Shown here: piece by piece, positions 35,085-35,930 of the stretch
Layout of the letters: each line of letters opens with the position of its first letter
Numbering within the stretch: the stretch's first letter is position 1
NCBI GenBank assembly: GCA_963774955.1
Contig: CAVZGV010000004.1
Location: 131,522 to 195,521, forward strand
DNA from: Candidatus Falkowbacteria bacterium
GTDB lineage: Bacteria > Patescibacteriota > Patescibacteriia > CAIXNZ01
DNA: 64,000 nucleotides
Direction: 5' to 3'
Program-made: the position numbers and the translations under genes
The notes under the pieces: model-generated
Database searches by the model: none
Seen by the model: the letters and a program-made list of their open reading frames with translations, nothing else
What the model was told of the DNA's origin: nothing

Positions 35085-35894
35085 AAAAGCTCCCGACAAC
35101 TTGCGTACAACGCATGTTTATCGGGAGCCAGGTTAAGGCGCAGTTTGAGCCTGCGATTTTTAGTTTTGGGCGGCAGAACATAAGTGTCAACCAAGTTGCT
35201 AGCATGGCAAAACTTGATCAAGACATTCCCGTTTAGACGAACAGATGTTTGTCCGCTACAGGTAACCAGCCGCCTAGTTCAATCAGCGTATCCCCCTTAG
35301 GCTATTTAGCTACCGGCCTCCAATTTTCAGGTCAGTAATGATGCCTTAAGCTTTGGTAGGGGGCGAATTGACCTCCTTCTTGTCGTGGGAGCAAATCAGG
35401 TTTGGCTTTCATGGATGCAGTTTTTTCCAGACTGACCATGATGGTCGTGGGAAATCGGAAGCAATGGCTGCTTCTTGGGAGTCCCCAAATTTTTCGTTCG
35501 CTTCATCATTTCCTCACTTTTGAATTCAAACTGACGTTTGTTTCGGAATCGTAAGTGCGTTCAACCAGTCTTTTTGATCTGTGAGATATCACGAAATCAC
35601 GGTCTTGGTTGCCAACGTCTGTCGCACTCGATTCTGCTGACCAGTGGATTTAACCACCTTGCCTAGCTAGTCTTGTCATCAAAACTAACTGCTCTTGTCA
35701 CTTGCCAGACAGCTTCTGACAACATCTTTTGATTCACAGACCGTTCACATCCATCACCTCCTTTTGCCCTATATATATAGGCAGATCACGGGAGGAAGCT
35801 CATTCGAAAGTACAAACCGGCTCGACTGGGCCTTGGTCAGTCTTTCGAAATCACAGTCCTCCCATAATGATCACCTCCTTTCTTTTTCAAAGTA
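35085..35894 (-). ncRNA. Candidate ~800-nt non-coding (or tiny-ORF) transcript bounded by a strong promoter and a strong terminator
   Basis: No ORF of 60 aa or longer on the transcribed strand. Promoter TTGACA-17-TGaTAGAAT at complement 35902-35930. Terminator ggctcccgata...tcgggagc plus T7 at complement 35085-35125. Tiny SD-preceded ORFs (MGGL*, MDVNGL*) lie at the 5' end. Confidence 0.3.
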
Positions 35895-35901
35895 ATATCT
35901 T

Positions 35902-35930
35902 ATTCTATCATAAAATTAAAAGAATGTCAA
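35902..35930 (-). promoter_or_regulatory. Strong sigma70-like promoter (TTGACA-17 bp-TAGAAT with TG extension) overlapping palindrome gaatgtcaatagacattagacattc
   Basis: Consensus -35, 17-bp spacer, extended -10, and an inverted repeat that could serve as an operator. Confidence 0.55.

What the first reader, a model, noticed from the sequence alone, without database searches (positions are those of the whole stretch)
35085..35930. ORF-free ~800-nt transcription unit with a near-consensus promoter and a strong terminator (candidate large structured ncRNA or small-peptide leader RNA)
On the minus strand there is a TTGACA-17-(TG)TAGAAT promoter (35930-35902), overlapped by the palindrome gaatgtcaatagacattagacattc. 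It is followed ~800 nt later by a strong intrinsic terminator (ggctcccgataaacatgcgttgtacgcaagttgtcgggagc plus T7; 35125-35085). Neither strand between them has an ORF of 60 aa or longer.

The 5' end carries two tiny ORFs behind perfect AAGGAGGTGA Shine-Dalgarno sequences (MGGL*, MDVNGL*), and further small ORFs follow (20 and 37 aa). GC content (~45 %) is higher than in neighbouring intergenic DNA, and many local hairpins are present.

A strongly promoted, cleanly terminated, non-coding unit of this size next to the rsr island and the tRNA cluster is a good candidate for a large ornate ncRNA (GOLLD/ROOL-like classes are often near tRNAs) or for a small-protein/leader-peptide operon.
Basis: seen in the sequence. 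Interest (0 to 1): 0.6.

Follow-up and report, generated by a model that had tools for sequence, protein, structure and literature searches.

The report
Structured RNA carrying conserved tiny ORFs
The 800-nt "ORF-free" unit is a real, separately transcribed, highly folded RNA gene of a Patescibacteria (CPR) bacterium, and it belongs to an apparently undescribed RNA family whose one constant feature is one or two 3-5-codon mini-genes behind unusually strong ribosome-binding sites.

Summary
A near-consensus extended -10 promoter (35930-35902) and a strong terminator (35129-35082) bracket an ~814-nt minus-strand transcript. It has no Rfam match, no protein signal and a fold z-score of about -5.

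It is not GOLLD/ROOL-like, not a pseudogene and not part of the rsr block. It is the long form of an RNA family found directly downstream of a TrmBL2-like regulator gene in every close relative examined and in about 10 of the more distant Patescibacteria loci.

Four things are conserved: the promoter, a palindrome overlapping it, a two-tier terminator, and above all AAGGAGGTG-N5-9-ATG/GTG followed by 2-4 further codons and a stop. The body varies from 220 to 880 nt and diverges fast, but stays structured.

The mini-ORFs show wobble-position variation. In all 12 RNAs with two mini-ORFs, both end in the same amino acid (Leu, Val, Ile, Trp or Gly), often through different codons. The window's two Shine-Dalgarno sites are among the three strongest matches to the 16S tail in 64 kb.

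Best reading: a ribosome-engaging "minigene" RNA whose function lies in translating the tiny ORFs. The physiological output is unknown. There are no expression data.

The parts
36004..36771 (-). TrmBL2-like winged-helix regulator gene (255 aa). Always sits immediately upstream of the RNA.
   Evidence: Pfam TrmB, E = 3e-12. AlphaFold model with pLDDT 84 matches the full-length TrmBL2 structure 5bqt at E = 3e-13. Orthologues of 58-80% identity are all followed by the RNA.
35917..35951 (-). Palindrome (12-nt arms, 11-nt loop) overlapping the -35. Either the intrinsic terminator of the regulator gene, an operator, or both.
   Evidence: Present in almost all relatives (no clear repeat at L006 and L007), mostly as AAAATGTCAAT-N4-ATTGACATTTT followed by a T-run. 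Symmetric compensatory changes in L048, L056, L112 and L114. It is the only perfect AATGTC-N11-GACATT site in the window.
35902..35930 (-). Promoter TTGACA-17-TG-TAGAAT.
   Evidence: The same promoter is conserved in 26 of 28 near-group loci by a single regular expression.
35082..35895 (-). Predicted RNA1 transcript, about 814 nt. The transcription start is inferred at about 7 nt after the -10; the 3' end is the T7 run.
   Evidence: No Rfam hit. z = -5.5 and -5.2. Homologues are L006 (full length, E = 3e-57), L112 and L114 (5' and 3' parts), and L001 (99.8% identical).
35872..35883 (-). SD1, AGAAAGGAGGTG.
   Evidence: Duplex with the window's 16S 3' tail (GGACCAUCUCCUUUCUA) is -20.2 kcal/mol, against a median of -3.5 for 41 long ORFs.
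35851..35865 (-). Mini-ORF1, ATG GGA GGA CTG TGA (M-G-G-L).
   Evidence: Orthologous mini-ORFs are present in nearly all near-group loci.
35784..35876 (-). 5' domain hairpin. The start codon and Gly codons pair with UUCCUCCCGUGAU; the inner hairpin is 35849-35803.
   Evidence: MFE and centroid structures. The inner P1 helix has compensatory changes in the 4-sequence alignment.
35755..35765 (-). SD2, AAAAGGAGGTG.
   Evidence: -14.3 kcal/mol against the 16S tail. Second copy of AAAGGAGGTGAT.
35734..35748 (-). Mini-ORF2, GTG AAC GGT CTG TGA (fM-N-G-L). Same last codon and same stop as mini-ORF1.
   Evidence: The last amino acid is the same in both mini-ORFs in 12 of 12 two-ORF RNAs.
35644..35690 (-). 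Hairpin A (AGUUAGUUUUG/CAAGACUAGCU) and hairpin B (GGUGG-UUAAAU-CCACU). This is the most conserved block of the long-form subfamily.
   Evidence: helices 3 and 4.
35292..35363 (-). CCCCC...GGGGG-closed domain with two inner helices.
   Evidence: helices 6-8. Conserved in window, L006 and L114.
35082..35129 (-). Two-tier intrinsic terminator: outer stem, A-rich internal loop, inner CGC/GCG stem, then T7.
   Evidence: The same architecture with compensatory changes occurs across the family, including distant members (helix 11).

Best explanation
RNA1 (35895-35082, minus strand) is the long-form member of a Patescibacteria RNA-gene family that always follows a TrmBL2-like regulator gene. I read it as a ribosome-engaging 'minigene' RNA.

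Proposed sequence of events:
1. A strong promoter makes a stable, highly folded transcript.
2. One or two Shine-Dalgarno sites with unusually long complementarity to the 16S 3' tail capture 30S subunits.
3. The ribosome translates only 3-5 codons and reaches the stop while still close to the SD.
4. The function is carried out at that step. The amino acid next to the stop, which is the same in both mini-ORFs of one RNA, sets pausing or termination behaviour or the nascent tri- or tetrapeptide. The RNA then reports on, or acts on, the translating ribosome pool, as a leader-peptide-type sensor or brake uncoupled from any downstream gene.
5. The large body is a lineage-specific structural scaffold, possibly with extra riboregulator functions.

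Shown here: the unit, its conservation, the mini-ORF pattern, the amino-acid-level concordance, SD strength, and structure with covariation.

Inferred: transcription, translation, control by the neighbouring regulator, and the physiological output.

My sub-confidences: real independent RNA gene 0.9; mini-ORFs translated and under selection 0.65; ribosome-level (cis) mode of action rather than a free peptide 0.4.
For: Conservation of the transcription unit:
- The promoter is conserved in 26 of 28 near-group loci. Terminators are conserved.
- Chromosomal synteny 16S - tRNAs - tRNA-Gly - regulator - RNA1 - RNA2 is conserved.

The mini-ORF is the family signature:
- The consensus is AAGGAGGTG-N5-9-ATG/GTG, then 2-4 codons, then a stop. 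It is present in nearly all near-group loci and in 10 distant loci (about 8 distinct RNAs).
- Its rate is 1.31 per kb downstream of the regulator gene against 0.037 per kb in background. 69% of SD-plus-start sites there are mini-ORFs, against 11% in background.

Coding-type variation:
- In codon 3, the entropy at nucleotide positions 1, 2 and 3 is 0.41, 0.41 and 1.87 bits.
- Synonymous sets are seen: GGA/GGC/GGG/GGT, GCT/GCG/GCA and CAT/CAC.

Concordance of the last amino acid:
- It is identical in both mini-ORFs in 12 of 12 two-ORF RNAs: Leu 6, Trp 3, Val, Ile, Gly. The Leu pairs use CTG/TTG, CTA/CTT and TTA/CTG.
- Two of the 12 were fetched after the rule was stated.

SD strength:
- SD1 is -20.2 and SD2 -14.3 kcal/mol against the 16S tail, compared with a median of -3.5 for 41 long ORFs. 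Only one gene is stronger.
- AAAGGAGGTGAT occurs only here in the window.

Body:
- It is not conserved across the family. It is strongly structured, with z between -3 and -6 in most members.
- The long-form subfamily shows covariation: 90.9% of cells paired against 37-47% when the partners are slid, and 22 pairs with double changes against 3-7.

No protein or known RNA family fits.
Against: - There are no transcription or translation data.
- In predicted folds the start codon and SD of mini-ORF1 are largely base-paired, which could mean they are structural rather than translated.
- A simulated ribosome on ORF1 changes the predicted accessibility of SD2 only slightly, by a mean of about +0.08. 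No switch is demonstrated.
- There are exceptions: L061 has a 21-codon ORF (my own reading of the L061 sequence printed), L045 has a degenerate first ORF, L055 has MFA, and many distant TrmB-like loci have no such RNA.
- The concordance data are phylogenetically non-independent. A conservative count of 5 residue classes gives about 1/120, and several pairs share the codon too, so gene conversion or an RNA-level constraint is not excluded.
- A ribosome-level role does not explain why the body is under such strong selection for structure.
- The palindrome may be only the regulator gene's terminator, so regulation by the neighbouring protein is unproven.
Confidence: 0.4

Rival explanations
1. Peptide-product model. 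The RNA is essentially a very stable mRNA for tri- or tetrapeptides (here fMGGL and fMNGL). These peptides act in trans as small ligands or signals, possibly sensed by the adjacent TrmBL2-like regulator, in a receptor-plus-peptide cassette logic. The structured body only stabilises the message.
For: - Selection is at the amino-acid level, and both mini-ORFs of one RNA share a C-terminal (G)-hydrophobic motif.
- The RNA is strictly adjacent to a DNA-binding regulator gene across large distances.
- The strong promoter and SD fit high output.
- The body is fast-evolving while the ORFs are conserved.
Against: - The peptides have no export or processing signals.
- Distant members encode only M-x-D/N/E. 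After Met removal these would be dipeptides (own knowledge of methionine aminopeptidase rules).
- The regulator has a TrmBL2 fold, without a recognised peptide-binding domain.
- A 12-nt SD is longer than what is optimal for protein yield (own knowledge).
- The strong selection for structure in a body of up to 700 nt is left unexplained.
Confidence: 0.2
2. Ribosome or 16S-tail sponge, or 5' stabiliser. The extended SDs bind 30S subunits either to titrate them or to protect the RNA from 5'-to-3' decay (STAB-SD-like). The mini-ORF only lets the ribosome clear, and the peptide sequence is irrelevant.
For: - The SD complementarity is exceptional in a genome where most genes have weak or no SD.
- Each long-form RNA has two such sites.
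- SD1 lies 10-50 nt from the predicted 5' end in near-group members.
Against: - It does not predict wobble-type variation or same-last-amino-acid concordance through different codons.
- In distant members the SD and mini-ORF lie 105-200 nt from the 5' end.
- SD1 is often predicted to be paired.
Confidence: 0.12
3. Purely structural or trans-acting non-coding RNA. The SD-like purine tracts and CCUCC strands are helix elements, or seeds for pairing to other RNAs, and the tiny ORFs are never translated.
For: - Strong fold z-scores and compensatory changes.
- GGAGG and CCUCC strands pair with each other in the predicted 5' domain.
- GC is enriched relative to the flanks.
Against: - A start codon at canonical spacing plus an in-frame stop after 2-4 codons recurs in about 40 independent sequences, whereas only 11% of SD-plus-start sites are that short in background.
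- The third-position variability pattern.
- The body, not the ORF module, is the part that is not conserved.
Confidence: 0.12
4. Classical leader-peptide attenuator or long 5' leader controlling read-through into the downstream RNA2/rsr genes.
For: - Short ORFs sit ahead of hairpins and a terminator.
- The last-codon amino acids (Leu, Val, Ile, Trp) recall those of biosynthetic leaders (own knowledge).
Against: - The terminator is followed by an AT-rich spacer and a separate, highly conserved near-consensus promoter for RNA2.
- The downstream gene differs between lineages: RNA2/rsr, xseA-like, thioredoxin-like, membrane protein.
- The mini-ORFs lie 600-750 nt from the terminator in the window.
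Confidence: 0.05
5. Decayed protein-coding gene (pseudogene), or a GOLLD/ROOL-type ornate phage-associated RNA.
For: - The region is of gene-like length, and a tRNA gene lies 1.5 kb away.
- One near-identical contig (L001) has phage-like genes further upstream.
Against: - No homologous region carries an ORF of 70 aa or more, and gene callers found none.
- No Pfam signal in any small ORF.
- Indels between homologues are not in multiples of three.
- No Rfam hit at E <= 10, and no match in phage or plasmid collections.
- Chromosomal synteny next to 16S is conserved.
Confidence: 0.03

Closest known systems
Minigenes (phage lambda bar; 23S rRNA 'E-peptide' pentapeptide minigene; axe-txe minigene, PMC8708949). 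The first two are cited from my own knowledge.
   Same: A strong SD followed by an ORF of only 2-6 codons, whose effect depends on being translated rather than on a folded protein. For resistance peptides, the length (4-6 residues) and C-terminal residues matter, and the action is in cis on the translating ribosome.
   Different: - Here the minigene sits on a dedicated, conserved chromosomal RNA gene of 220-880 nt with its own promoter and terminator.
- The concordance is at amino-acid level, not isoacceptor level (CTG/TTG, TTA/CTG), unlike tRNA-sequestration models.
- No toxicity or resistance phenotype is known. The peptide sequences (M-x-G-hydrophobic) do not match the E-peptide consensus as I recall it.
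Ribosome-dependent leader peptides and the attenuator-derived dual-function RNA rnTrpL/peTrpL (PMC6614838 and PMC7968998).
   Same: A short translated ORF at the 5' end of a terminated, structured small transcript. Amino-acid-specific codons near the ORF end. The released RNA and the peptide can both be functional.
   Different: - No conserved downstream operon.
- The ORFs are 3-5 codons rather than 14 or more.
- One regulatory-type codon per ORF, duplicated across two ORFs.
- No alternative terminator/antiterminator pairing was found.
Dual-function regulatory RNAs such as Staphylococcus RNAIII/hld, SgrS/SgrT and SR1/SR1P (own knowledge; review PMC12612679 listed).
   Same: A large, multi-hairpin, fast-evolving regulatory transcript with its own promoter and terminator that also carries a small ORF.
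   Different: The ORFs here are an order of magnitude shorter and are the most conserved part. No base-pairing targets have been identified.
STAB-SD and ribosome-binding 5' stabilisers of Bacillus mRNAs (own knowledge).
   Same: An extended SD near a 5' end that binds 30S subunits tightly.
   Different: Here a start codon and an in-frame stop are always present and show coding-type variation. In distant members the module is internal.
GOLLD and ROOL large ornate RNAs
   Same: Size class (about 600-800 nt), high predicted structure, proximity to tRNA genes.
   Different: No covariance-model match at E <= 10. The size is not conserved within the family. It is chromosomal and linked to a regulator gene. 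Its hallmark is tiny ORFs.

Membership tests
GOLLD / ROOL / other Rfam large ncRNAs (OLE, HEARO, raiA, group I/II introns, RNase P, tmRNA, 6S, T-box) | Match to the family covariance model. | tested here: not met
   cmscan of the whole window at gathering thresholds finds only 16S and 4 tRNAs. cmscan of 34100-36100 at E <= 10 gives only chance miRNA/snoRNA hits. 15 related loci also give nothing at the RNA.
GOLLD / ROOL | Typical prophage or tRNA-adjacent context. | tested here: inconclusive
   tRNA-Gly lies 1.5 kb upstream and L001 has phage-like genes upstream. However, conserved chromosomal synteny with 16S and a kinase gene and the absence of phage or plasmid matches argue against a mobile context.
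Leader-peptide transcription attenuator | A short SD-preceded ORF at the 5' end. | tested here: met
Leader-peptide transcription attenuator | Alternative hairpins whose choice depends on ribosome position, ending in a terminator just upstream of the regulated genes. | tested here: not met
   The terminator is 600-750 nt from the ORFs. The simulated ribosome footprint gives only marginal refolding. An independent conserved promoter follows, and the downstream genes are not conserved.
Minigene (lambda bar type) | A strong SD plus an ORF of six codons or fewer. | tested here: met
Minigene (lambda bar type) | Effect through sequestration of the tRNA that reads the last sense codon (isoacceptor-specific). 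| tested here: inconclusive
   The last residue is concordant in 12 of 12 RNAs, but 5 pairs use different Leu codons read by different anticodons. Drop-off itself is not testable with these tools.
Dual-function sRNA | An independent transcript with its own promoter and terminator that carries a translated small ORF. | tested here: inconclusive
   The promoter and terminator are predicted and conserved. Translation is inferred only from sequence patterns.
Dual-function sRNA | A base-pairing regulatory region with identified targets. | not tested
   No target search was attempted. The genome outside the window is not available.
Y RNA (because of the neighbouring rsr gene) | An RNA of about 100 nt with a long terminal stem that binds Ro/Rsr and is linked to rsr. 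| tested here: not met
   RNA1 is 814 nt. It evolves at about 66% identity where the RNA2-rsr block is 83-87% identical. The family occurs in loci without rsr. The neighbouring RNA2 fits the Y-RNA shape better.
RRNPP-type peptide-receptor cassette | A receptor-regulator gene adjacent to its peptide gene. | tested here: met
   Adjacency is conserved.
RRNPP-type peptide-receptor cassette | A TPR-type peptide-binding receptor and a secreted, processed pro-peptide. | tested here: not met
   The regulator has a TrmBL2 fold: winged helix, coiled coil and a PLD-like domain. The ORFs encode only 3-5 residues.
STAB-SD 5' stabiliser | An SD-like element close to the 5' end that acts without an associated ORF. 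| tested here: not met
   An ORF is always present. In distant members the module lies 105-200 nt from the 5' end.

The most novel reading that the evidence does not exclude
These RNAs could be a previously unrecognised class: stand-alone chromosomal 'minigene RNAs' that carry the smallest conserved translated genes known in bacteria (3-5 codons). They would be built to capture ribosomes through an over-long SD and to make each captured ribosome synthesise a defined tri- or tetrapeptide whose C-terminal residue is what selection sees. That would be either (a) a natural counterpart of the laboratory 'resistance-peptide' minigenes that clear tunnel- or peptidyl-transferase-centre-binding compounds from the ribosome in cis, or (b) an amino-acid-specific brake or sensor on the few dozen ribosomes of an ultra-small CPR cell.
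Probability: 0.2. Interest if true: 0.9.

Novelty: new variant of a known kind. Interest (0 to 1): 0.68.

Why it matters
Patescibacteria (CPR) are a large, mostly uncultured part of bacterial diversity, and almost nothing is known about their RNA-based regulation.

If these mini-ORFs are translated, they push the lower size limit of conserved functional ORFs down to three codons. They would also show that the minigene principle, so far known from phage lambda, plasmid toxin-antitoxin loci and laboratory selections, is used as a dedicated chromosomal device.

The rule that both mini-ORFs of one RNA end in the same amino acid is a simple prediction. It makes the question 'is it the peptide, the tRNA or the ribosome that matters?' directly testable in vitro.

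The result also shows that gene finders and Rfam-based annotation miss a conserved locus next to the 16S rRNA gene in these genomes.

Tried and rejected
- Rfam at gathering thresholds and at E <= 10: nothing relevant.
- blastn (distant mode) of the RNA against phage and plasmid collections: no match.
- Exact 18-mer of the most conserved block (AAGGTGGTTAAATCCACT) in viral contigs: 7 hits, none homologous beyond the word, so chance.
- Pseudogene test: no ORF of 70 aa or more in homologous regions and no Pfam hit for any small or antisense ORF.
- Third candidate small ORF (35396-35509, 37 aa, MMKRT...): it aligns in frame with a 43-aa ORF in L006, but with 2 synonymous against about 11 non-synonymous changes, and it is absent from L112 and L114. 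No coding evidence (my own comparison of the alignment).
- Prophage or mobile-element idea, from L001 differing upstream of window 36959: rejected for the RNA itself, because 16S-tRNA-kinase-regulator-RNA synteny is conserved.
- Hairpin B (GGUGG...CCAC) as a family-wide core: found only in the long-form clade and two distant loci.
- Universal sequestration of SD1: heterogeneous pairing probabilities, not universal.
- Ribosome-driven relay between ORF1 and SD2: only a marginal effect.
- Other operator copies in the window, to define a regulon: none.
- Other SD-plus-mini-ORF units in the window: only chance ones inside genes.
- Literature searches for CPR RNAs, TrmB, Y RNA, minigenes and leader peptides: no description of this RNA in the held library.
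Full report

On the minus strand the scan finds TTGACA-17-TAGAAT with an upstream TG at 35930-35902. This is 11/12 matches and the best site in the 3-kb region scanned, 34000-37000. 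The stricter pattern TTGACA-N14-TGNTANAAT occurs four times in the window against 0.02 expected, so it is this genome's real strong-promoter form.

The -35 lies inside a perfect 12-nt-arm palindrome at 35951-35917. At 35129-35082 there is a -24 kcal/mol interrupted hairpin followed by T7.

GC is 0.45-0.48 inside the unit and 0.23-0.34 in the flanks. The 811-nt RNA folds to -265 kcal/mol against -227 +/- 7 for dinucleotide shuffles, z = -5.5. My own shuffles without the terminator give z = -5.2.

The 12-mer AAAGGAGGTGAT occurs exactly twice in 64 kb, both times here.

Two corrections apply:
- The antisense strand does hold TTG-start ORFs of 66 and 83 aa. They have no family hit and no counterpart in relatives.
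- The second tiny ORF is better read from GTG 35748 (fM-N-G-L) than from the ATG two bases after the SD.

**2. What it is not.**

- Rfam 15 gives only 16S and four tRNAs in the window. Nothing credible appears in 34100-36100 even at E <= 10.
- Phage and plasmid collections have no similar DNA.
- None of the small ORFs hits Pfam.
- Homologous regions in relatives contain no ORF of 70 aa or more, and no gene was called there.
- Indels between homologues are not multiples of three.

The pseudogene and GOLLD/ROOL readings are rejected.

**3. Where it comes from and what surrounds it.**

The gene upstream (36004-36771) is a TrmB-family winged-helix protein. Its AlphaFold model (pLDDT 84) matches full-length archaeal TrmBL2 at E = 3e-13, with a PLD/NucT-like C-terminal domain. 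Its homologues are from Patescibacteria: Falkowbacteria, Uhrbacteria, Buchananbacteria and Parcubacteria.

The order 16S - tRNAs - kinase - tRNA-Gly - regulator - RNA1 - RNA2 - (rsr) recurs in L006, L048 and L112. The locus is therefore chromosomal.

Rsr is over 90% identical between the window, L112 and L006, although the regulator is only about 70% identical. At nucleotide level the regulator gene is 70-72% identical, RNA1 about 66%, and the RNA2-rsr block 83-87%. RNA1 is therefore not part of the conserved rsr block.

**4. The family.**

Using an alignment of 43 orthologues (A1), I fetched 40 genome loci and 62 metagenome loci, plus contigs for individual proteins.

Every near-group locus (regulator at least 58% identical) with enough downstream sequence shows the following:
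- The same promoter, TTGACATTTTTTTTAATTTATGATAxAAT.
- A palindrome whose right arm is the -35. In most relatives it is an 8-13-bp stem with a 4-nt loop followed by a T-run, with symmetric compensatory changes. It is a textbook terminator for the regulator gene, an operator, or both. I cannot separate the two.
- An ORF-poor stretch ending in a 'two-tier' terminator.
- A second, separately promoted conserved RNA.

Only L006 is alignable to the window RNA over its full length (E = 3e-57). L112 and L114 share the 5' ~320 nt and the 3' end. Other members share only the first 80-200 nt.

Bodies range from about 220 to 880 nt and fall into subfamilies with no detectable similarity to one another. Most are nonetheless far more stable than shuffles, with z between -3 and -6. 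Two short forms are not.

In the 4-sequence long-form alignment, 76 predicted pairs are 90.9% paired against 37-47% in slid controls. 22 pairs show double changes against 3-7, and 0 of 500 shuffles reach the observed values. Two caveats apply: there are only four sequences, and the structure was derived from the same alignment.

**5. The conserved core is a minigene.**

Anchoring on the start codon gives AAGGAGGTG-N5-9-ATG/GTG, then 2-4 sense codons, then a stop.
- First mini-ORFs: MGGL, MNGL, MGGV, MGGG, MGGA, MGW, MNGI, MSGL, MVW, MGAG and others.
- Second mini-ORFs, about 110-130 nt further on in 12 RNAs: (V)NGL, MHGL, (V)NGV, MGGW, MDGI, MNTL, MVSW, MFL and others.
- Distant orthologue groups (35-45% identical regulators): MVD, MAN, MGN, MSN, MGE and MVG, on RNAs of 250-400 nt.

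Such SD-plus-mini-ORF units occur at 1.31 per kb in the 450 nt after the regulator gene, against 0.037 per kb elsewhere in the same loci. 69% of SD-plus-start sites there are this short, against 11% in background. Archaeal and very distant homologues have none. In the window itself, the only intergenic units of this kind are the two in RNA1.

**6. Evidence that translation, not just sequence, is selected.**

- Across 24 distinct four-codon mini-ORFs, the third codon has entropies of 0.41, 0.41 and 1.87 bits at its three positions. Synonymous series are seen: GGA/GGC/GGG/GGT, GCT/GCG/GCA and CAT/CAC.
- In every RNA with two mini-ORFs, both end in the same amino acid:
  - Leu/Leu: window, L002, L042, L111, L116, L117
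  - Val/Val: L003
  - Ile/Ile: L008
  - Trp/Trp: L006, L114, L112
  - Gly/Gly: L047
- L116 and L117 were fetched after the rule was formulated.
- The Leu pairs use CTG/CTG, CTG/TTG (three times), CTA/CTT and TTA/CTG. The concordance is therefore at amino-acid level, not at codon or isoacceptor level.
- A permutation of the first 10 pairs matches fully in 4e-5 of trials. Collapsing to five residue classes gives about 1/120. Relatedness weakens these numbers, and in several pairs the codon is also identical, so an RNA-level cause or gene conversion is not excluded.

**7. Ribosome capture.**

The 16S 3' tail here, and in L006 and L048, is GGACCAUCUCCUUUCUA. Against it, SD1 gives -20.2 and SD2 -14.3 kcal/mol. 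The upstream regions of 41 long ORFs in the window have a median of -3.5, and only one is stronger. The RNA thus carries two of the three best 16S-tail matches in 64 kb of a genome whose genes mostly lack an SD.

**8. How it most likely works.**

Three observations point the same way: the ORF module is conserved while the body is replaceable, the SDs are longer than needed for yield, and selection sees the residue next to the stop. This suggests the function is executed on the ribosome that translates the mini-ORF.

I therefore favour a ribosome-engaging minigene RNA, a leader-peptide-like sensor or brake with no downstream gene (0.4). Ranked below it:
- A free-peptide signal, possibly read by the neighbouring regulator (0.2).
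- A sequence-indifferent ribosome sponge or 5' stabiliser (0.12).
- An untranslated structural RNA (0.12).
- A classical attenuator for RNA2/rsr (0.05).
- A pseudogene or GOLLD/ROOL-type RNA (0.03).

Weak points:
- There are no expression data.
- The mini-ORF1 start region is paired with a UUCCUCCC strand in predicted folds.
- A simulated ribosome on ORF1 barely changes SD2 accessibility.
- There are exceptions (L061, L045, L055).
- The strongly selected structure of the body remains unexplained.

**9. Comparison with known systems.**

In form it resembles minigenes: lambda bar and the 23S 'E-peptide' (own knowledge), and the axe-txe minigene (PMC8708949). It also resembles leader-peptide-derived dual-function RNAs such as rnTrpL/peTrpL (PMC6614838 and PMC7968998).

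It fails the defining tests for attenuators, Y RNAs, RRNPP cassettes, STAB-SD and all Rfam families; see the membership table. Six full-text searches found no description of this RNA.

**10. Verdict.**

The unit is real, is conserved as a family, and is apparently undescribed.

I rate it a new variant of a known kind (minigene or dual-function RNA), with interest about 0.7. There is a 0.2 chance that it represents a genuinely new class of ribosome-directed RNA.

Noticed in passing
window 34690-34866 (minus strand); also L003 6385-6600, L008 5000-5170 and 20 or more other loci: A second conserved transcription unit (RNA2) lies right after RNA1. It has the promoter cTTGACAaattttttt-gatatGCTAAGAT, followed by an RNA of about 130-180 nt with a terminal stem of about 22 bp full of compensatory changes, enclosing a ~45-nt module and ending in CCAUGCUUAUCG. 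There is no Rfam hit. The long-stem shape is Y-RNA-like, but RNA2 also occurs in loci without rsr nearby.
   Followed up: partly
window 34178-34690 (minus strand): More conserved non-coding sequence lies between RNA2 and rsr. It includes a 13-nt perfect long-range complement (34317-34329 / 34580-34592), the 14-mer TTTGAAGTAACCTC twice (34240, 34359), a hairpin at 34610-34672 (a spurious miRNA hit) and a terminator-like hairpin at 34204-34178 just before the rsr start. This could be a YrlA-like partner of Rsr, but no Rfam Y-RNA match was found.
   Followed up: no
window 32395-34074 (rsr): The Ro60/Rsr gene has 56% GC in a ~38% GC neighbourhood. Its protein is over 90% identical in the window, L112 and L006, whose TrmB-like proteins are only about 70% identical. 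This suggests recent horizontal spread or very strong constraint on the RNA2-rsr block.
   Followed up: partly
window 39327-41493; L006 1-1400; L048 1-1640: The 16S rRNA gene is followed by tRNA-Ile, tRNA-Phe and tRNA-Pro, then protein genes, with no 23S in the window. The same layout occurs in relatives. The 16S 3' tail reads CCAUCUCCUUUCU instead of the usual CACCUCCUU.
   Followed up: partly
L001 1-6667 versus window 36959 onward: An ENA contig is 99.8% identical to window 27513-36959. Upstream of that point it carries phage-like genes (Mu F, HNH) instead of the 138-aa ORF and tRNA-Gly. This is either a rearrangement or integration at about 36959, or a chimeric assembly.
   Followed up: no
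window 26318-31120: About 40-105-nt (mostly 70-95-nt) intergenic elements are repeated at least seven times between small genes of unknown function downstream of rsr, at 72-100% identity to one another (for example 28318-28410, 30326-30418, 27394-27467, 29707-29786).
   Followed up: no
L112 4180-4600: About 450 nt of degenerate direct and inverted repeats (gggattgggaatttgg... and its complement) sit between the RNA1 terminator and the RNA2 promoter in one relative. They are absent from the window.
   Followed up: no
L072 4783-5300: A distant relative carries two tandem RNA1-like units, each with the same mini-ORF, ATG GGN AAC TAA (M-G-N).
   Followed up: no
whole window (41 long ORFs): Most long ORFs have no recognisable Shine-Dalgarno sequence; the median duplex energy with the 16S tail is -3.5 kcal/mol. 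Some starts may be mis-assigned by the mechanical ORF list, but the genome appears largely SD-poor. This makes the RNA's SDs stand out.
   Followed up: partly
window 2599-2627 (-), 22553-22581 (+), 48116-48144 (+): There are three further perfect matches to the extended -10 promoter pattern TTGACA-N14-TGNTANAAT, against 0.02 expected by chance. Their transcripts were not examined.
   Followed up: no
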